64,000 bases of DNA, taken from Escherichia coli. Lineage in GTDB: Bacteria; Pseudomonadota; Gammaproteobacteria; Enterobacterales; Enterobacteriaceae. Position numbers and translations under genes: made by a program. The notes under the pieces are model-generated. The model worked only from the letters and a program-made list of their open reading frames with translations, searched no databases and was not told the DNA's origin. Positions within the stretch are counted from its first letter, which is position 1. Each line of letters starts with the position of its first letter. Below are positions 52 to 11,986 of the stretch, in pieces. The stretch lies in the NCBI GenBank assembly GCA_025544715.1, contig GCA_025544715.1_4109.2, one strand, 5' to 3'.

Positions 52-378
52 TTACATCTTATTCGTGAACTTGAATTTGATAATATCAATCCAAATTTTA
101 ACATTTCCTGCAAATAGTGCTTTGATTAGCCACATAATTGCAACAAAGTTCTCAACCAAATCCAAAGTTTTAACTACTGCACCGAGTGGGAAGATAAAAC
201 TCAAAACCCATACAATTACTGAAACCACAACAACTGTATAGAAAATACGTACAATTGGTGAATCAAGCATAAACAACTCAGAGAACTCTTTTTTATCATT
301 ATCATCAGTAATAAAGCATTCGTAAACCAGAAGCCAAATCAGAATTAAAGACGGAATTGAAATTAGTACTGATAGCAT
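52..378 (-). CDS. hypothetical membrane protein (108 aa)
   Basis: ORF track; several hydrophobic segments; tiles with neighbours. Confidence 0.45.
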   Translation of the reverse strand: MLSVLISIPSLILIWLLVYECFITDDNDKKEFSELFMLDSPIVRIFYTVVVVSVIVWVLSFIFPLGAVVKTLDLVENFVAIMWLIKALFAGNVKIWIDIIKFKFTNKM

Positions 379-2729: not shown

Positions 2730-2880
2730 ATTAGTCCTTACAATAATTTATTAATAATAATAGCACCCAAACCAAGTACTGCAATAATTGCAGATACCCA
2801 CATTATCCCGTTCACTGCACCTGTGAGTTCTTTATCAAACTCTCGGCACTTCTTGCGGTAATCTTCCCACTCTTTGTTAT

Positions 2881-3096
2881 TCACACTGCCACTCCTAATA
2901 GGTCGGTAGCTTTCTTGAGTACTACATCAATCGTTTCCAGTACTGCACCTTTGTGTTCGATTGATACAATATTATTATAAGTATCAAGATCCAAGTACTC
3001 CATATATTCAGTTTTGAATACACGAACATCAGTACTAGTGATTTTAATATCACAACCTTTATCCCAAATAACCTGCATCATTTCATTGGTAGTCAT
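2881..3096 (-). CDS. hypothetical protein (71 aa)
   Basis: ORF track. Confidence 0.35.
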   Translation of the reverse strand: MTTNEMMQVIWDKGCDIKITSTDVRVFKTEYMEYLDLDTYNNIVSIEHKGAVLETIDVVLKKATDLLGVAV

Positions 3097-3371
3097 TATT
3101 CAACCTTATCATAAACAAGTTTGTGTGTGCTTAGTACTTTGTTGTGATGTCCAGGGCATTCATATACATACAATCGCTCCTGACGTTTTTCCCAACCACC
3201 ACAGATACGACCTGATTGTGTACATATTTCATACTCGTTAATAAAAGACTTGCCTGTGAATGTACAATCCTGACGAACTAAGTCTTTTGCACTAAACCTG
3301 CCGTCATCATTACATGCTGTAAGAAACATTGTACAGAATACAACAAACACAGTCAATAGTTTTTTAATCAT
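3096..3371 (-). CDS. putative lipoprotein (91 aa)
   Basis: N-terminal signal peptide ending in lipobox-like LTAC. Confidence 0.5.
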   Translation of the reverse strand: MIKKLLTVFVVFCTMFLTACNDDGRFSAKDLVRQDCTFTGKSFINEYEICTQSGRICGGWEKRQERLYVYECPGHHNKVLSTHKLVYDKVE

Positions 3372-3736
3372 TTAAGATCTCCCCAACGGCAACCCTTCAT
3401 ATGATTCAAATTCACCTCAACTATTTCATGTGTGTCAGTGCACAATATCGACAGTTTTTTTGTAAAATCACCTGGTGAACTTTCATATTTCACACAATAG
3501 CCCTCGATACGGAGAACCGAATGGGTCCATGATTCCCACTCAATCCAAATTTCATTTGGGTGATATACAATATCTTCGTTTAGCTTGTGATATTCATCTA
3601 GTGGAAGCTGTGTAGTGATATCAACATATTTTACATTTCGAATGAGTTTTTCAAGCTGATATTTTGCATTAGCAAGATATTCTTCATCATTCAAACGTTC
3701 TAAGATATTTGCTGCACGAGTAGTATCAATACTCAT
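3368..3736 (-). CDS. hypothetical protein (122 aa)
   Basis: ORF track; 4-nt overlap coupling. Confidence 0.45.
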   Translation of the reverse strand: MSIDTTRAANILERLNDEEYLANAKYQLEKLIRNVKYVDITTQLPLDEYHKLNEDIVYHPNEIWIEWESWTHSVLRIEGYCVKYESSPGDFTKKLSILCTDTHEIVEVNLNHMKGCRWGDLK

Positions 3737-3738
3737 TG

Positions 3739-3984
3739 TTATTCTCCATGAACCACTGATGTATGCATACGAATTTTCCCACTCGTATGCGACGAAGAAG
3801 TGTTTGCATTAGGACAGTACACAGTGTATAAAGTCGCACCAGCACCATCTTGTTGCATACGATAAATCTTACACCCTGCTTCTTTTAATTCAGCAGGTAG
3901 AACAAAATCACTTGTACGTTCTTTGGTAGAAGCATCACATGCAGTGAGAAGGAAAGCGACGAGTACTGCTACGATATATTTCAT
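3739..3984 (-). CDS. putative lipoprotein (81 aa)
   Basis: signal peptide MKYIVAVLVAFLLTAC with lipobox-like LTAC. Confidence 0.5.
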   Translation of the reverse strand: MKYIVAVLVAFLLTACDASTKERTSDFVLPAELKEAGCKIYRMQQDGAGATLYTVYCPNANTSSSHTSGKIRMHTSVVHGE

Positions 3985-4292
3985 TAACGAACCTCCACTT
4001 CTTGAGAAAGAGCATGAGTCAGTGCATTTGAATTCGAACCATTCATTTCACGCTGACATACAAACATAATGGCATCTTGTACTGAACCTGCGATTTCATA
4101 CTCACGACCTTCTGGATCAGTTACCAGATGTTCAACGATACAACCACCACGCAGTACTGATGCACCAGTACTTACACTAATTCTGTAACCTAAGAAATCA
4201 AACTGCATACATGCGTCAGTAGGTTTCATCCAATAACCGCTGTTTTGATTCAAATCGATGATTACAAAACCTTGAGTGTTAGTTTGAAACAT
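3984..4292 (-). CDS. hypothetical protein (102 aa)
   Basis: ORF track; GAGGAA-like RBS upstream. Confidence 0.45.
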   Translation of the reverse strand: MFQTNTQGFVIIDLNQNSGYWMKPTDACMQFDFLGYRISVSTGASVLRGGCIVEHLVTDPEGREYEIAGSVQDAIMFVCQREMNGSNSNALTHALSQEVEVR

Positions 4293-4386: not shown

Positions 4387-4415
4387 ATAATACTGCTATT
4401 ATTCAGTACTGTCAA
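4387..4415 (-). promoter_or_regulatory. sigma70-like promoter (TTGACA-17-TATTAT)
   Basis: read on minus strand; upstream of ORF 3984-4292. Confidence 0.45.
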
Positions 4416-4859: not shown

Positions 4860-5078
4860 TTAATTGATAATTTGATATTCACGATGACCATAGAAGCCAG
4901 CTTCAAGGATGCGATTACCATCAACATCTTCCAAGTCCCAACCACGGGATGTTTCGGCAATAATAGTCATGATGTGTCCTTTGGTAAAGGTTCCACTCAT
5001 AGTGGATACATCTTCAAGTAATTGAACTTTCTTTCCAACATTGGAATTCGGTTTAAACATTTTATGGCCCTTATTCAT
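4860..5078 (-). CDS. hypothetical protein (72 aa)
   Basis: ORF track. Confidence 0.35.
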   Translation of the reverse strand: MNKGHKMFKPNSNVGKKVQLLEDVSTMSGTFTKGHIMTIIAETSRGWDLEDVDGNRILEAGFYGHREYQIIN

Positions 5079-5253
5079 TGATCACATCAAGTACTTTATC
5101 CAGCTTTTTACCAATGCTTTCCTTTGGTTTCTCACCATTCTGGAATACATTAGAACTGCAATACTCAGGACGCGTATTAGGAAACTTCTCGTTCATCCAG
5201 GAGTGACCGTAAACACCCAGCATGATGCCAACGATAAGAATGATAATTTGCAT
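5071..5253 (-). CDS. hypothetical small membrane protein (60 aa)
   Basis: ORF track; hydrophobic N-terminus. Confidence 0.3.
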   Translation of the reverse strand: MQIIILIVGIMLGVYGHSWMNEKFPNTRPEYCSSNVFQNGEKPKESIGKKLDKVLDVINE

Positions 5254-5268
5254 GATAATTTCCTCTGA

Positions 5269-6057
5269 TTAAATGTTAGTAGTATAGTACTTGATTTCGT
5301 TTTGAATTGCAAGTTCTATTTGTTTATTGAAAAGAATTCCAAACTCTTTGATTGATTCACAATCGAATTCAATAGAAAAAGTATACTCTGGTACACGTAC
5401 ATTGTCAATACCCAAATACTCTTTTATGTAAATTTTAATGAGTTCACATAGTGCAGTACTAAGACATTGAATTTCAAAATGTTTTGCACCTTTGTCAAAA
5501 TACTTGAATGCATCAATATCACCTACAATAAAACTATTCTTTAATGTAGTGAATAGGTTCTCAGGAAACACGGTAATAGGTGACATTGATTTAAGAATGT
5601 ATGTATCTTTTGCATTCTTAATGTACTCAATGAAGCAGTAGTTAACGTCAGGCTCGATTGAACGATCCGCGTTATGATACCAGTGTTTAAACTCACTGTA
5701 TTCAGCAAACTTATGCTGGCGTAATGCGTTACAATCTTCACACAGTGCAGTCATGTTCTCTTTATCATTACCGCCCTGAAGACAGTCCAGTACGTTATGG
5801 TCTAACGTCATGCGTACAAGACGTTTCCCTTTAAGTACATAAGGTCTGAATTTATAACGTTCTTTAGTACTGTGCTTGTGTAAAGTGAATACTACATTGG
5901 ATTCACCACAACAATCACATTTAAAGCCATCACGTGACATTACATGAATAAGTTTGCGTGTGTTCGGTCCAAACTCAGATTTAGTAATTTTATCCACAAT
6001 TTCTGATGGTTGGTAATATTTTGAATTCCGTTGAATCAGTTCATCGATAGTGCTCAT
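5269..6057 (-). CDS. HNH endonuclease domain protein (262 aa)
   Basis: Cys-x2-Cys pair plus DHNVLDCLQGGNDKENMTALCEDCN, an HNH-type motif. Confidence 0.55.
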   Translation of the reverse strand: MSTIDELIQRNSKYYQPSEIVDKITKSEFGPNTRKLIHVMSRDGFKCDCCGESNVVFTLHKHSTKERYKFRPYVLKGKRLVRMTLDHNVLDCLQGGNDKENMTALCEDCNALRQHKFAEYSEFKHWYHNADRSIEPDVNYCFIEYIKNAKDTYILKSMSPITVFPENLFTTLKNSFIVGDIDAFKYFDKGAKHFEIQCLSTALCELIKIYIKEYLGIDNVRVPEYTFSIEFDCESIKEFGILFNKQIELAIQNEIKYYTTNI

Positions 6058-6288
6058 TTACATTATTCCTTCTATGCAACAACCAAGAATTACTTTTTTA
6101 ACTTCAACAACTCGTACCAAATAGAATCCATTTGAAAAGTTAAAACTATACATTTGTACTAAGGCATCTGCTTCAGATTTCGCACGTATACATGATAGAT
6201 AAATTTCACGTATATCACCATCTAACGATACTTGTTTCTCTGCATCGATGACAATAGAACGAATCTCAAAACGAACACCATAACTCAT
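6058..6288 (-). CDS. hypothetical protein (76 aa)
   Basis: ORF track. Confidence 0.35.
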   Translation of the reverse strand: MSYGVRFEIRSIVIDAEKQVSLDGDIREIYLSCIRAKSEADALVQMYSFNFSNGFYLVRVVEVKKVILGCCIEGIM

Positions 6289-6494
6289 TGAGTTTGTCCT
6301 ACAATAAGCTTTGTGTTAGTATTGCTATTGTAACACCACATACTTTCTTTACTAACTGTCATAAGTGACATGTGGTTTACTTGATCATAAGTACTGTCAC
6401 GTACAGAAAAACATTGGTTCATTGAGTTCATTGGGGTTATTTGTACACCGGAATTAACAGAGAAAGCGACTACTAAAAAGATTACTGAATTCAT
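6285..6494 (-). CDS. hypothetical protein (69 aa)
   Basis: ORF track; AAGGAA RBS and promoter upstream. Confidence 0.35.
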   Translation of the reverse strand: MNSVIFLVVAFSVNSGVQITPMNSMNQCFSVRDSTYDQVNHMSLMTVSKESMWCYNSNTNTKLIVGQTQ

Positions 6495-7145: not shown

Positions 7146-8111
7146 TTAGAAATCTTCGTATTCGTACCCTTTTGCAAGTACTAGCTTCTTAAGCTTTTGC
7201 ATAGCTTCACTGTACTTTCGATGTATTGATGAACGGGATTTAACATATTTTCCATTATCATCAACAAAACCATTATCAGCAATCTCACGAAGCGTTTCAG
7301 GTTCATATTCACCTAGACCATGAACACGCTGGATAATCTCACGTTCTTTAGTACTCAATTCGTTAGTCAGTTCATTGATAGCATAACGTAAAGGTGCACG
7401 AATACTATCAACATTGAGGTTAAAATCAGAAGCAGGTGAATGAATAATGTCACCTAGTGTACCATCTGTAACACCGTCTAATGGTGCATCCAGTGAAGTG
7501 TATTCGCTTTGAAATAACAAACAATTATTAACATGCTGAATCTCAATCCCAGTACCCTCTGAGATTATTTCAGGAGTTGGGCGAACACCATGTTTACGCA
7601 TATATTCTTGGCAGAATCTTTTTACTTTGATCTTATGAACACTCATATAACGTGGGAAGTGTACCATATAGTTAGCGTCAGAACTTTCGTTATAAACTGT
7701 CATGTAAATACTAGAAGAAGCATAGGTAATGAACTTCACATTCTTATTAAGATCAAAGGTTTTTAGTGCTCTCATGAACCCCTCAACACCATATGAAATC
7801 TTATCTTCAAATGGGATATAACAAGTACATTTACTTGCTACATCAATAATAAGTCCATAATTGTAACGAACTAACAGTTCAGTGTTTTTCTTTACATTGA
7901 TACCAGCTTGAATATCACGAATTAGATCTTCATTGGTAACATTTTGTGGTCGCTTAAGTGTAATATTATATTTGAAACTGCTTTGTACTTTACCTTCATT
8001 TTCATCTTTATCTTCAACGAAATCTAAGGCTTCTAGTGTGTTGACTTCTTCATTAGCAAAACATTCATCCAGAACTTCTTCGGCAATTGTATTTAAATCA
8101 AGCTTTTTCAC
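7146..8111 (-). CDS. RNA polymerase sigma factor, sigma-70 family (321 aa)
   Basis: region 2-like GFMRALKTFDLNKNVKFITYASSSI and region 4-like LSTKEREIIQRVHGLGEYEPETLREIAD. Confidence 0.6.
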   Translation of the reverse strand: MKKLDLNTIAEEVLDECFANEEVNTLEALDFVEDKDENEGKVQSSFKYNITLKRPQNVTNEDLIRDIQAGINVKKNTELLVRYNYGLIIDVASKCTCYIPFEDKISYGVEGFMRALKTFDLNKNVKFITYASSSIYMTVYNESSDANYMVHFPRYMSVHKIKVKRFCQEYMRKHGVRPTPEIISEGTGIEIQHVNNCLLFQSEYTSLDAPLDGVTDGTLGDIIHSPASDFNLNVDSIRAPLRYAINELTNELSTKEREIIQRVHGLGEYEPETLREIADNGFVDDNGKYVKSRSSIHRKYSEAMQKLKKLVLAKGYEYEDF

Positions 8112-9677: not shown

Positions 9678-9706
9678 ATTATATATAACATACTAAATTA
9701 TGTCAA
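9678..9706 (-). promoter_or_regulatory. sigma70-like promoter (TTGACA-17-TATAAT)
   Basis: consensus hexamers on minus strand. Confidence 0.55.
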
Positions 9707-10128
9707 GTATTTTTAGTACCTTCTTCTGCCATTTTTGTGATATACCAATTAAGTACTGATTTGTGTACCATAAAAAATGTGAATGCAAATATAACAATAG
9801 CTGCTGATGTAACACTATTAGATAATGACCCAAGTTGGATGTTAGTACCTAAAATAACAATAAATGGATACAACACAATCAATCTACTGTAAGGTTCGTC
9901 TCCAGTATCACGGAGAAATCCAAGCCTTTCATGATCAGTATCCATAGTGACAATTGGACAGAACATAAGTGCAGACATAAGAGCAATACCAATTTGTGCT
10001 ACATTGGAAATTGTAAACCACAAAGGATTTAAACCATATGAAATATTATTTTCTGTACAGTAGTAACCAAACGAATTGAATGCACAAACTAAAAATACAA
10101 AAATACAAATCTTATTATAACCTCTCAT
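9703..10128 (-). CDS. hypothetical membrane protein (141 aa)
   Basis: multiple hydrophobic helices. Confidence 0.45.
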   Translation of the reverse strand: MRGYNKICIFVFLVCAFNSFGYYCTENNISYGLNPLWFTISNVAQIGIALMSALMFCPIVTMDTDHERLGFLRDTGDEPYSRLIVLYPFIVILGTNIQLGSLSNSVTSAAIVIFAFTFFMVHKSVLNWYITKMAEEGTKNT

Positions 10129-10547
10129 TTGTTTAGCTCCGTTAATTTTCGTTTAACTTCTAGATCATGAAATTCATCGGCATATGAGTTTTGAACAGTT
10201 CTGATGTATTCCAACATAACAAACATAGTTCCACATACCCATAGATATGTATAGTAATCAAATACAAATGCATATAACATACACGGTACTAAAATGAAAG
10301 TGTAAACAAAACTATATCGTGTAGTTCCAAATACTTTCAGATATAACAAACGTCGATAATCACGGGCAAATGTATTGATGCACACTGAAAATGTAATTAA
10401 TGTATACCATGAAATACCCTGAATTAAACCTGAAACATTTACAAGTTTATGTTCATCGGAAAACCCCAGTGCATTTAGCACTGGAGCCATAACCCAACCA
10501 ATAATACTAATAAGAAAAAGATATTTTGCATTACTTAGTGTGAACAT
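10125..10547 (-). CDS. hypothetical membrane protein (140 aa)
   Basis: multiple hydrophobic helices; 4-nt overlap with downstream gene. Confidence 0.45.
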   Translation of the reverse strand: MFTLSNAKYLFLISIIGWVMAPVLNALGFSDEHKLVNVSGLIQGISWYTLITFSVCINTFARDYRRLLYLKVFGTTRYSFVYTFILVPCMLYAFVFDYYTYLWVCGTMFVMLEYIRTVQNSYADEFHDLEVKRKLTELNK

Positions 10548-11048: not shown

Positions 11049-11525
11049 CTAAGAATCTTTGTTGTCAAACTTTTCCCTCAAGTATTTTTCTATTAATCTA
11101 ATTTGTGTTGGTGGTAAGATAAAATAATCGTACATAGATTTACTACCATGTATCGAACAACCTACACTAATACTATAATCATATGGATATAAGTATATTG
11201 GGTCTTGTATATCAGGTATGAAAACTATTCTTGATATATTACCATTTCCTATTCTTACTTGGACGTTATCATTATTATTAATATAATTTCTTATACAGTA
11301 CTCAATTATACCATTTACTTTAGAATCATAACCATAATTTTTATATTCAGGAAAAATGAAATAGCGTTCATGGTATAGATATGAGCATAGTAATGCTGGG
11401 AAAAAATTCCAAAAACCTTCATGCTTTGCAATTGTTTGTGCATATTTAAAATGATTAGCATTACTAAAAATATTATACAGTACAAAATACACAAATGGAC
11501 TTACCAACAACACTATTGTTAACAT
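11049..11525 (-). CDS. hypothetical protein (158 aa)
   Basis: ORF track; hydrophobic N-terminus. Confidence 0.5.
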   Translation of the reverse strand: MLTIVLLVSPFVYFVLYNIFSNANHFKYAQTIAKHEGFWNFFPALLCSYLYHERYFIFPEYKNYGYDSKVNGIIEYCIRNYINNNDNVQVRIGNGNISRIVFIPDIQDPIYLYPYDYSISVGCSIHGSKSMYDYFILPPTQIRLIEKYLREKFDNKDS

Positions 11526-11986
11526 CAGAAGCCTCTGTATTTTTCATACACTTCAACGCATTCCATGATTTTGTCGTCGTCCATCATATCATAGCCTTGT
11601 AGAAATTCTTCTTTATCAACCTTCCCTGCCATCATATCTGTGTCAGAAATTCTGGAGTCATAGAAGGAATACATATCTTTATAGTACTGGTTTTTGTGTT
11701 GCTCAATTTTTACTTTAGCATATCCAGCACAAAATGAAGGAGATTTAACAACTTCCCATTTATGCTTCTTGATGGGTTTATCATTAGCATGTTTTTCCCT
11801 GTATGTCTGACGATAACGTTCACGCATTTCAGGCATGTATTCTTCAGCAGTACGTTTAGGGGGAGTTTTACCAGTCCCAATAGTTTTAATAGTTTGACGT
11901 TGTTCTTCTGCGTGTACTGGGGAAATGAAACATGATGTACCAAACAGTACTGCTACGATAACCATAAAATTCTTAAACATAATCAA
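11525..11986 (-). CDS. hypothetical secreted protein (153 aa)
   Basis: signal peptide-like MIMFKNFMVIVAVLFGTSCFISPVHA. Confidence 0.5.
   Translation of the reverse strand: MIMFKNFMVIVAVLFGTSCFISPVHAEEQRQTIKTIGTGKTPPKRTAEEYMPEMRERYRQTYREKHANDKPIKKHKWEVVKSPSFCAGYAKVKIEQHKNQYYKDMYSFYDSRISDTDMMAGKVDKEEFLQGYDMMDDDKIMECVEVYEKYRGF

What the first reader, a model, noticed from the sequence alone, without database searches (positions are those of the whole stretch)
3096..3984. Two predicted lipoproteins in the early region
ORFs 3096-3371 and 3739-3984 both have a signal peptide ending in LTAC. Small phage lipoproteins are classic superinfection-exclusion factors (for example T5 Llp masks its receptor).
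Basis: partly seen in the sequence, partly recalled or inferred. Interest (0 to 1): 0.45.

Follow-up and report, generated by a model that had tools for sequence, protein, structure and literature searches.

The report
Two early jumbo-phage lipoproteins, function unknown
A giant E. coli phage carries two small, unrelated genes in one early operon whose products are very probably lipid-anchored in the host's periplasm; they resemble known phage "keep other phages out" lipoproteins only in their export signal, so that role is a reasonable but untested guess.

Summary
P1 (3096-3371, 91 aa) and P2 (3739-3984, 81 aa) start with a lipoprotein signal peptide ending in the lipobox L-T-A-C. The lipobox Cys is conserved throughout both families, and both genes are under purifying selection. 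They sit in one tightly packed block behind a near-consensus sigma-70 promoter, so "early region" is supported.

The window is a 121Q/PBECO4-like jumbo phage (Asteriusvirus). P1 is confined to a few enterobacterial jumbo phages. P2 (phrog_902) occurs in about 590 phage genomes from several lineages.

The superinfection-exclusion reading is only an analogy. Similarity to T5 Llp and to Cor stops at the signal peptide. Neither structure model matches solved Llp. Neither gene lies next to a receptor-binding-protein gene. P2 has Asp at +2, which predicts inner-membrane retention rather than the outer-membrane location Llp needs. They are not the spanin, which lies elsewhere in 121Q.

Best reading: two unrelated, disulfide-stabilised periplasmic lipoproteins made early that act on the envelope, possibly excluding other phages by a non-Llp mechanism. 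Function is untested and interest is moderate to low.

The parts
4387..4415 (-). Near-consensus sigma-70 promoter (TTGACA-17 nt-TATTAT) in the gap upstream of the gene block. It is about 95 nt upstream of the orf102 start codon.
3984..4292 (-). orf102, the first gene of the block. It has no hydrophobic segment and belongs to phrog_26720 (unknown function). Its stop codon overlaps the P2 start (TAATG).
3739..3984 (-). P2, an 81-aa prolipoprotein of the phrog_902 family. Signal peptide is aa 1-15 (3940-3984), lipobox LTAC, and the Cys16 codon is 3937-3939. The +2 residue is Asp and +3 is Ala. The mature 66-aa domain has conserved Cys38 and Cys57, a 'VVxCPN' motif and a 'GK' motif.
3368..3736 (-). 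orf122, between the two lipoprotein genes. It has no signal peptide or TM segment and belongs to phrog_22236 (unknown function). It is not conserved next to P2 homologs in other phage groups. Its stop overlaps the P1 start (ATGA).
3096..3371 (-). P1, a 91-aa prolipoprotein of the phrog_31263 family. Signal peptide is aa 1-19 (3315-3371), lipobox LTAC, and the Cys20 codon is 3312-3314. The +2 residue is Asn and +3 is Asp. The mature 72-aa domain has Cys36 and Cys72 conserved across the family; Cys50 and Cys57 are present in most members but absent in some. The model shows a short helix plus a long beta-hairpin.
2881..3096 (-). orf71, the next gene in the block. Its start overlaps the P1 stop. 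It belongs to phrog_22069 (unknown function).
2738..2884 (-). orf48, a 48-aa protein with a hydrophobic C-terminal segment (phrog_38271, unknown function). It is another small, probably membrane-associated product of the same block.

Best explanation
P1 and P2 are two evolutionarily unrelated small prolipoproteins of a 121Q-like jumbo phage. They are co-transcribed early by host RNA polymerase from a sigma-70 promoter in a translationally coupled block: orf102, P2, orf122, P1, orf71, orf48. After Sec export, Lgt/LspA/Lnt processing at Cys16 (P2) and Cys20 (P1) would leave compact, disulfide-stabilised beta-rich domains of 66 and 72 residues. Each would be tethered by a short acidic linker to a periplasm-facing membrane leaflet. 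P2 carries Asp at +2 and is therefore predicted to stay in the outer leaflet of the inner membrane. P1 (Asn at +2, Asp at +3) is ambiguous, but many of its relatives carry Asp at +2. The most likely role is to modify the infected cell's envelope from the periplasmic side so that later-arriving phages fail. That would be superinfection exclusion in the broad sense, but not Llp/Cor-type jamming of an outer-membrane receptor. For P2, a block at or near the inner membrane fits better: genome entry, or a conserved envelope machine. This is analogous to the membrane-anchored lipoprotein Ltp of Streptococcus phage TP-J34 or to T4 Imm/Sp. Shown: ORFs, lipoboxes, conservation, purifying selection, promoter and gene packing. 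Inferred: lipidation, localisation and early timing. Guessed by analogy: the exclusion function.
For: Lipobox rule passed, and far above chance. The lipobox Cys is invariant across 66 diverse P2 relatives and all P1 relatives. dN/dS is 0.08-0.24. Near-consensus sigma-70 promoters are enriched about 6-fold, are 31/33 on the coding strand, and one lies at 4415-4387. Overlapping stops and starts with SD sequences were checked. Asp is at +2 in about 60% of P2-family clusters, and Asp or Glu in about 73%. Asp at +2 is the Lol-avoidance signal, and S21D and S21E at +2 block RcsF entry into LolCDE (PMC9595528). P2 homologs occur in about 590 phage records from lineages with different host-recognition systems (Felixounavirus/Mooglevirus, Vequintavirinae, Eneladusvirus, Asteriusvirus, 114-kb Vibrio phages) and always among early or replication genes. 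They have no conserved neighbour, which fits a stand-alone factor aimed at a conserved target rather than one receptor. The spanin role is already filled elsewhere in 121Q. Early expression of exclusion proteins is the documented pattern for Llp (PMC9586334).
Against: There is no functional evidence of any kind. No homology or fold similarity to any characterised exclusion protein was found. The P2 model is only moderately confident (pLDDT 68.9). The +2 residue varies within both families (Asn-Pro in Felix-like P2 members; N/D/E/Y in P1 relatives), so localisation may not be uniform or critical. Lipidation and localisation are predictions. Early timing is inferred from promoter consensus alone. 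The Asteriusvirus receptor is unknown; one paper cites flagella as a suggestion for SHEFM2K (PMC11895373).
Confidence: 0.4

Rival explanations
1. Llp/Cor-type receptor masking. [quoted passage not shown]
For: They are small early lipoproteins of similar size, each with a conserved disulfide and a 'short helix plus beta strands' architecture, loosely like the description of Llp. Public records label the orthologs 'Cor superinfection exclusion protein' and 'lytic conversion lipoprotein'. P1 has Asn rather than Asp at +2, so outer-membrane sorting is possible. Sequence methods cannot even link Cor to Llp (4.9%), so negative sequence tests are weak.
Against: The Cor PHROG hit is E=0.008, against 7e-13 for phrog_902, and covers residues 1-47. 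Profile alignments stop at the signal peptide. No structural match to solved Llp was found, and no Cor or Llp entry is among the top 50 BFVD hits for P1. The genes are not next to any tail or receptor-binding gene, unlike Cor and Llp. P2 has Asp at +2, as do most of its relatives. The P2 family is shared by phages with unrelated receptors.
Confidence: 0.12
2. Periplasmic host-takeover factors unrelated to exclusion. They would bind and inhibit or redirect a host envelope component, such as a peptidoglycan hydrolase, protease, envelope-stress sensor or transport machine. The benefit would be stabilising the infected cell during the long jumbo-phage cycle, or tuning lysis timing.
For: They lie in an early block rich in small membrane-targeted proteins: 19 of 122 coding-strand ORFs in the window have a hydrophobic 19-mer, including 11 of the 31 ORFs listed below 13 kb. 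The P2 family is conserved across phages of Escherichia, Erwinia, Yersinia, Pectobacterium and Vibrio, which suggests a conserved host target. Selection is purifying, with no sign of gene-wide diversifying selection.
Against: No similarity to any known inhibitor family (MliC, PliC, Ivy and others would have been reachable by Pfam, NCBIfam and PDB searches). No partner gene is conserved. Nothing distinguishes this from the exclusion hypothesis computationally.
Confidence: 0.3
3. Lysis proteins: o-spanins or spanin-like outer-membrane lipoproteins.
For: o-Spanins are the commonest small phage lipoproteins in Gram-negative hosts, and the size range fits.
Against: Kongari et al. 2018 assign the 121Q and PBECO4 spanin pair to genes 511/512 at 245.3-246.0 kb, with unrelated sequences (PMC6139136 supplement). 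The orthologs of P1 and P2 are at 92.6-94.9 kb of 121Q. No adjacent gene encodes an N-terminal-TMD i-spanin. The genes follow an early-type promoter and are not in a lysis cassette.
Confidence: 0.03
4. Chance ORFs, or proteins that are not actually lipidated (the lipobox-like motif is fortuitous).
For: No experimental evidence of expression. The phAPEC6 record does not annotate either ORF.
Against: 0.05 expected against 3 observed. The signal peptide and Cys are conserved in relatives down to about 25-40% identity. dN/dS is well below 1. SD sequences and translational coupling are present.
Confidence: 0.03

Closest known systems
T5 Llp (lytic conversion lipoprotein; PDB 8A60, 7QJF)
   Same: A small (61-residue mature) early-expressed phage lipoprotein that is periplasmic, beta-rich with a short helix, and stabilised by one disulfide. 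It acts alone.
   Different: No sequence similarity beyond the signal peptide. No fold match for either model. Llp has Ser at +2 and works at the outer membrane on FhuA, whereas P2 has Asp at +2. llp lies next to the receptor-binding gene pb5, whereas P1 and P2 lie among small early genes. The Llp disulfide joins the N and C termini (C11-C58). The conserved Cys pairs here are 19 residues apart (P2) and 36 residues apart (P1).
Cor (HK022, phi80, N15, T1; phrog_1119)
   Same: A lipoprotein signal peptide and a length of about 75-80 aa, with two conserved Cys in the mature part. One GenBank record labels the P2 ortholog as Cor.
   Different: The label rests on a weak, N-terminal hit (E=0.008, residues 1-47). 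hhalign against a 7-member Cor alignment covers only the signal peptide, and the mature domains give probability 0.6% or less. The seven Cor sequences aligned here have A/Q/K/S at +2, and those checked sit beside tail-tip or tail-fibre genes.
Ltp of Streptococcus thermophilus phage TP-J34 (my own knowledge; the topic appears in PMC6356513, which I did not read)
   Same: A phage lipoprotein anchored on the outer face of the cytoplasmic membrane that blocks genome injection independently of the receptor. This is the closest mechanistic analogue if P2 is retained in the inner membrane.
   Different: It is from a prophage in a Gram-positive host and has a helical repeat fold. No similarity was detected, and the P2 Foldseek search of the PDB listed nothing significant.
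T4 Imm and Sp (spackle) (my own knowledge)
   Same: Early proteins of a virulent myovirus that act at the inner membrane or periplasm to stop superinfecting genomes, by blocking DNA entry and inhibiting the tail lysozyme.
   Different: They are not lipoproteins. No homology was found, and this comparison was not directly tested here.
Entry-exclusion lipoproteins of conjugative plasmids (TrbK of RP4, TIGR04359)
   Same: A small lipoprotein that blocks incoming DNA. P2 gives a sub-threshold hit (E=0.018, 15 bits against a cutoff of 23).
   Different: The hit covers only residues 4-40, mostly signal peptide, and is below the curated cutoff. This is not membership.
Two-component spanin, o-spanin subunit (Rz1 type)
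   Same: A small phage lipoprotein.
   Different: There is no i-spanin partner and no lysis cassette. The genus already has a spanin pair at another locus.

Membership tests
Bacterial-type lipoprotein (PROSITE PS51257 / Lgt-LspA substrates) | N-terminal positive n-region, uncharged hydrophobic h-region, lipobox [LVI][ASTVI][GAS]-C, with Cys at position 15-35 | tested here: met
   Both ORFs pass the rule. 3 observed against 0.05 expected. 13 P2-family members give weak matches to Pfam LPAM_1, best E 0.0047. UniRef names the 121Q and PBECO4 orthologs of P2 'Lipoprotein'.
Bacterial-type lipoprotein (PROSITE PS51257 / Lgt-LspA substrates) | Conservation of the lipobox Cys among homologs | tested here: met
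   Invariant in A1, A3 (66 sequences) and A2/A5. The few apparent exceptions in my regex count are variant boxes (PAGC, LYGC) or N-terminally extended ORF calls.
Bacterial-type lipoprotein (PROSITE PS51257 / Lgt-LspA substrates) | Actual diacylglyceryl modification and signal peptidase II cleavage | not testable with these tools
   Needs globomycin sensitivity, palmitate labelling or mass spectrometry.
Cor/Llp superinfection-exclusion lipoproteins | Sequence homology of the mature domain to Cor (phrog_1119) or Llp | tested here: not met
   For P2, phrog_1119 gives E=0.008 over residues 1-47, against 7e-13 for phrog_902; P1 gives no Cor hit. hhalign alignments are limited to the signal peptide. 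Mature-only probabilities are 0.1-1.8%. Caveat: the Cor-versus-Llp control scores only 4.9%.
Cor/Llp superinfection-exclusion lipoproteins | Llp-like fold | tested here: not met
Cor/Llp superinfection-exclusion lipoproteins | Outer-membrane sorting (no Lol-avoidance signal at +2/+3) | tested here: not met
   P2 is C-D-A, and Asp is at +2 in about 60% of its family. P1 is C-N-D, which is ambiguous, and many relatives are C-D-D/E/S. Cor has A/Q/K/S and Llp has S at +2. The rule is taken from PMC9595528. Localisation itself was not measured.
Cor/Llp superinfection-exclusion lipoproteins | Gene adjacent to the receptor-binding or tail-tip gene | tested here: not met
   Cor lies next to tail genes in HK022, JLBYU60, phi315 and vojen, and llp lies next to pb5. 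P1 and P2 are flanked by small hypothetical genes, with an HNH endonuclease and a sigma factor further along.
Cor/Llp superinfection-exclusion lipoproteins | Inactivation of a TonB-dependent receptor, giving an exclusion phenotype | not testable with these tools
   Requires expression and plating or adsorption assays.
o-Spanin (Rz1-type) | Paired with an adjacent, overlapping or embedding i-spanin gene (N-terminal TMD plus coiled coil) in a lysis cassette | tested here: not met
   Neighbouring ORFs lack an N-terminal TMD. The 121Q and PBECO4 spanins were assigned to another locus with different sequences.
phrog_902 (P2) and phrog_31263 (P1), both of unknown function | Significant full-length match to the family profile | tested here: met
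   P2: 7e-13 to phrog_902. P1: 1.5e-64 to phrog_31263.
Pfam DUF4884 (PF16225) | Match to the Pfam model above threshold | tested here: inconclusive
   The precomputed tables list PF16225 as an unmarked hit (E <= 1e-5) for all P2 relatives. Direct hmmscan of the window protein, four relatives and all 66 alignment members against the Pfam copy here found no PF16225 match even at E <= 10. The family has no known function.

The most novel reading that the evidence does not exclude
P2 (phrog_902, DUF4884-like) may define a widespread family of small lipoproteins made early by virulent phages of Enterobacteria and Vibrio and retained in the inner membrane (Asp at +2). The family spans about 590 genomes in at least five lineages with unrelated receptors. 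It would block a receptor-independent step of phage genome entry, or disable a conserved envelope machine, from the periplasmic face of the inner membrane. That would be a Gram-negative counterpart of Ltp and mechanistically distinct from Llp/Cor receptor jamming. P1 would be a second, independent invention with a disulfide-stapled beta-hairpin 'finger' fold that has no solved relative.
Probability: 0.15. Interest if true: 0.65.

Novelty: new variant of a known kind. Interest (0 to 1): 0.33.

Why it matters
Small early phage lipoproteins are one of the few proven ways a lytic phage protects its infected cell. Only the Llp/Cor type, which jams an outer-membrane receptor, is understood structurally. 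P2 belongs to a family found in hundreds of therapeutic-candidate phages, including Felix O1-like, rV5-like and jumbo phages. If it excludes other phages at the inner membrane, that would affect how phage cocktails are designed, because members could exclude each other. It would also add a new mechanism of envelope-level immunity. If it does something else in the periplasm, it is still a conserved, tractable 66-residue probe for a host envelope target. At present the practical value is narrower. The 'Cor' and 'lytic conversion lipoprotein' labels in GenBank for these genes are signal-peptide artefacts and should not be propagated.

Tried and rejected
1. P1 and P2 as paralogs. BLASTP gives E=0.25. 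hhalign aligns only the signal peptide (probability 34%). The mature-only comparison gives 2.7%, over the shared 'VY-x-CP' motif. There is no evidence for paralogy.

2. Cor membership, as annotated in vB_Ec-M-J. Rejected, because only the signal peptide aligns.

3. Llp membership, as annotated in fEgEco12. Rejected on sequence and fold. The fEgEco12 paper does not discuss these genes.

4. o-Spanin. Rejected.

5. A conserved two-gene module of P2 plus the downstream gene of about 120 aa. The neighbours are unrelated across phage groups.

6. Pfam, NCBIfam, PADLOC and PDB sequence searches gave nothing above threshold.

7. PF16225/DUF4884. The precomputed label could not be reproduced. I followed a 'DUF4884' protein reported in Henu8-type T1-like phages into phage vojen and found no second P2-like gene there. 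The P2 HMM only touched vojen's Cor, over its N-terminal 42 residues.

8. An exhaustive HMMER search for P1 found only 8 representatives in 1.84 billion proteins, four of them small lipoproteins of 85-88 aa. IMG/VR contained only 121Q itself.

9. Bacterial genomes. One pattern scan found nothing, and a second found a single homolog, in Hylemonella gracilis. An earlier attempt failed for lack of a conserved stretch.

11. phAPEC6 virion proteomics cannot be used, because neither ORF is annotated in that record.

12. No paper found in the held library addresses these proteins.
Full report
**1. What the window is.**
The 2.3-kb stretch around the finding matches 45 phage records. The best is Escherichia phage SHEFM2K at 96.8% identity, followed by 121Q, PBECO4, Sharanji and others at about 92%. 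The window therefore comes from an Asteriusvirus, a roughly 350-kb jumbo myovirus of E. coli and Salmonella. In 121Q the orthologous stretch lies at 92.6-94.9 kb.

**2. The observation.**
Both ORFs exist at the stated coordinates, but on the minus strand.
- P1 is 3096-3371(-), 91 aa, beginning MIKKLLTVFVVFCTMFLTAC|NDDG.
- P2 is 3739-3984(-), 81 aa, beginning MKYIVAVLVAFLLTAC|DAST.

Each has a basic n-region, an uncharged hydrophobic core and the lipobox L-T-A-C. Both pass my implementation of the PROSITE PS51257 rule. The window holds three such ORFs of at least 60 aa. In 200 shuffles the mean was 0.05, and no shuffle had two or more.

The starts are the first possible in-frame start codons. 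Each is preceded by a Shine-Dalgarno sequence about 7 nt upstream, GGAGG for P2 and GGAG for P1. Each start also overlaps the stop codon of the preceding gene, as TAATG and ATGA.

Orthologs differ mainly at synonymous sites. dN/dS is 0.08-0.24 for P1 and 0.12-0.13 for P2. These are real, constrained genes, and the lipoprotein reading is as solid as sequence alone allows. SignalP and LipoP were not available.

**3. Anatomy of the locus.**
orf102, P2, orf122, P1, orf71 and orf48 (4292 down to 2738) are packed with overlaps of 0-4 nt or gaps of 2 nt. A sigma-70 promoter one mismatch from consensus, TTGACA-17 nt-TATTAT, lies at 4415-4387. That places it in the only sizeable gap upstream, about 95 nt before orf102.

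Across the whole window there are 33 promoter matches of at least 11/12, against 4.95 +/- 2.2 in shuffles. Of these, 31 are on the minus (coding) strand. This is the signature of genes read by host RNA polymerase, so "early region" is supported. It remains an inference, because I found no transcriptome for this genus.

The block is rich in other small membrane-targeted products.

**4. The two families.**

*P1 (phrog_31263).* The match is E=1.5e-64. tblastn finds P1 in only 40 phage records. These are Asteriusvirus at 86-99% identity and a few other enterobacterial jumbo phages at about 37-40% (Munch, 7t3, SE_PL, PHA46, fENko-Kae01, EJP2). A filter-free HMMER search of 1.84 billion representative proteins found just eight hits, four of them lipoproteins of 85-88 aa.
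- Invariant features are the lipobox Cys, 'K-x-L...C-x-x-TG-x-x-F', and 'VY-x-C'.
- Cys36 and Cys72 are conserved across the family. Cys50 and Cys57 are present in most members but absent in some.
- The AlphaFold2 model of the mature domain is confident (pLDDT 87.6). It shows a short helix, a long two-stranded beta-hairpin and a short third strand.
- From their positions in the model, the Cys pairs would staple the base and the tip of the hairpin. This is an inference; I could not inspect coordinates.

*P2 (phrog_902).* The match is E=7e-13. P2 is far more widespread, with 588 phage records by tblastn at E <= 1. Some of the weakest hits are doubtful. The records include Felixounavirus/Mooglevirus, Vequintavirinae including Certrevirus, Eneladusvirus, Asteriusvirus and a large set of 114-kb Vibrio phages. 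A profile search returned 70 clusters.
- Nearly invariant features are the lipobox Cys, Pro30, Cys38, 'VV-x-C57-P-N' and 'G-K'.
- The model is a small beta-sheet with a short helix, at only moderate confidence (pLDDT 68.9).
- In every group examined, the gene sits among small early or replication genes.
- Its neighbours are unrelated between groups, so it behaves as a stand-alone gene.
- In bacterial genomes I found a single homolog, in Hylemonella gracilis. The pattern-based scans used are narrow.

*Are the two related?* P1 and P2 are not demonstrably related to each other. Only the signal peptides align.

**5. Comparison with known systems.**
- *Public labels.* One record calls the P2 ortholog 'Cor superinfection exclusion protein' (vB_Ec-M-J). 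Another calls both orthologs 'lytic conversion lipoprotein' (fEgEco12). That phage's paper says nothing about them.
- *Reference sequences.* I verified the T5 Llp sequence against PDB 8a60_B and 7qjf_A. I also built a Cor alignment from HK022, ES18, JLBYU60, SSU5, phi315, T1 and vojen.
- *Sequence.* Profile-profile comparison of either family with Llp or Cor aligns only 19-23 columns, all within or immediately after the signal peptide. With signal peptides removed, probabilities are 0.1-1.8%. This test has low power. Cor versus Llp, which a 2026 preprint groups together on predicted-structure grounds, scores only 4.9%.
- *Other libraries.* Pfam, NCBIfam, PADLOC and PDB sequence searches give nothing above threshold. 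The weak hits (TrbK, NF038215, LPAM_1) cover the signal peptide.

**6. Two further features separate these genes from Llp and Cor.**

*Gene context.* Cor lies beside tail-tip or tail-fibre genes, and llp lies beside pb5 (PMC9586334). P1 and P2 do not lie near any such gene.

[quoted passage not shown] The seven Cor proteins have A, Q, K or S at +2. P2 has Asp at +2, as do about 60% of its family, and Asp or Glu is at +2 in about 73%. Asp at +2 followed by certain residues at +3 is the Lol-avoidance signal that retains E. coli lipoproteins in the inner membrane. Asp or Glu placed at +2 of RcsF blocks its entry into LolCDE (PMC9595528).

P1 has Asn-Asp, which is ambiguous. Several of its relatives have Asp at +2.

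One caveat applies. Felix-like P2 members have Asn-Pro, so the location may differ within the family.

**7. Lysis role excluded.**
Kongari et al. assign the 121Q and PBECO4 two-component spanin to genes 511/512 at 245.3-246.0 kb. Those sequences are unrelated to P1 and P2 (PMC6139136 supplement). No neighbour of P1 or P2 looks like an i-spanin.

**8. Most likely mechanism.**
- *Shown.* There are two conserved, constrained genes with canonical lipoprotein signals, in a coupled block behind a strong host-type promoter.
- *Inferred.* Early synthesis, followed by Sec export, lipidation and cleavage. Disulfide formation in the periplasm. P2 anchored in the outer leaflet of the inner membrane, with the location of P1 uncertain.
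- *By analogy only.* They alter the envelope so that later phages fail.

P2 is shared by phages with quite different host-recognition systems and hosts. I therefore think a receptor-specific mask is unlikely. A receptor-independent step, such as genome entry across the periplasm and inner membrane, or a conserved envelope machine, is more likely. The analogues are Ltp of TP-J34 and T4 Imm/Sp (my own knowledge). An equally untestable rival is a host-takeover function in the periplasm unrelated to exclusion.

My confidences are:
- They are lipoproteins: about 0.9.
- Some form of superinfection exclusion: about 0.4.
- Llp/Cor-type receptor masking: about 0.12.

**9. Novelty and verdict.**
That these are predicted lipoproteins is already visible in public annotation. 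Both families are catalogued as PHROGs of unknown function. What this analysis adds:
- The Cor and Llp labels are signal-peptide artefacts.
- The two proteins are unrelated to each other and to any solved fold.
- P2 belongs to a large, cross-lineage family with a predominant inner-membrane retention signal.
- The genes are driven by an early host-type promoter.

I rate this a new variant of a known kind: small early phage lipoproteins, but not of the Llp/Cor type. Interest is moderate to low until a phenotype is shown.

**10. Unexplained.**
The precomputed Pfam table assigns PF16225 (DUF4884) to every P2 relative as an unmarked hit, meaning E <= 1e-5. Direct hmmscan with the Pfam copy available here finds no such match for any of the 66 members. 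I cannot tell whether this reflects different model versions. It does not affect the functional conclusions, since DUF4884 has no known function.

Noticed in passing
window 11525-11980 (-): A third ORF passes the lipobox rule (151 aa, MFKNFMVIVAVLFGTSC|FISPVHA-EEQ). It could equally be a signal-peptidase-I substrate cleaved after VHA. It belongs to phrog_36332 (unknown function) and has no Pfam or NCBIfam hit. Its upstream neighbour 11049-11525 has an N-terminal hydrophobic segment.
   Followed up: partly
whole window, minus strand (e.g. 4763-4736, 9706-9678, 11068-11040, 12914-12887, 28088-28060, 62753-62725): There are 33 near-consensus sigma-70 promoters (at least 11/12), against about 5 expected, and 31 are on the coding strand. 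The whole 64 kb therefore looks like a very long array of host-RNAP-driven early transcription units.
   Followed up: partly
window 3368-3984 versus L001 (vB_Ec-M-J), L007 (fEgEco12) and L019 (phAPEC6): This is a mosaic patch. The flanking genes orf102 and P1 are 97-98% identical at nucleotide level to vB_Ec-M-J and fEgEco12. P2 is only about 80% identical and orf122 about 74%, with indels. The P2 + orf122 segment therefore exists as divergent alleles between conserved flanks, which suggests recombinational exchange.
   Followed up: partly
window 52-378, 439-678, 2738-2884, 5071-5253, 6285-6494, 9703-10128, 10125-10547, 11049-11525 (all -): This end of the window has many small proteins with TM-like or signal-like hydrophobic segments. 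In the whole window, 19 of 122 coding-strand ORFs have one. Nearly all belong to PHROGs of unknown function, and one (10125-10547) is phrog_15839 'membrane protein'.
   Followed up: partly
window 7146-8111 (-) and 5269-6057 (-): A sigma-70-family sigma factor gene and an HNH endonuclease gene lie just upstream of the lipoprotein block. Both names come from the annotation of related records.
   Followed up: no
L023 3992-4270 (Hylemonella gracilis ATCC 19624, NZ_AEGR01000062.1): This is the only bacterial-genome homolog of P2 found. It is a 92-aa lipoprotein (LAGC|DRT...YVLPPELQDCKIF...VVRCPNS) on a 26-kb contig of a betaproteobacterium, next to another predicted lipoprotein and a 488-aa secreted protein. 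Whether it lies in a prophage is unknown.
   Followed up: no
L019 (phAPEC6, MK817115.1), locus 589-835 and 1205-1475: The phAPEC6 GenBank record leaves both lipoprotein ORFs unannotated, so published virion mass spectrometry for that phage could not have detected them. CMSTMSU and UE-S1 annotate a truncated P1 (76-77 aa) that starts at an internal Met and lacks most of the signal peptide.
   Followed up: partly
P2 family, precomputed Pfam column: PF16225 (DUF4884) is listed for all P2 relatives in the precomputed tables but cannot be reproduced by hmmscan against the Pfam copy available here. NCBI names an 86-aa protein of T1-like phages 'DUF4884 domain-containing' (PMC12210894). I could not link that protein to P2 in phage vojen.
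   Followed up: partly
BFVD hits to the P1 model: Several anonymous phage proteins of 74-95 aa resemble the P1 hairpin fold at probability 0.87-1.0 and TM about 0.5, with 16-22% identity. Examples are Edwardsiella jumbo phage pEt-SU A0A4D6DWQ5 and Yersinia phage phiR2-01 I7LEC8. They may form a wider structural family of small phage proteins. Their sequences could not be retrieved here.
   Followed up: no
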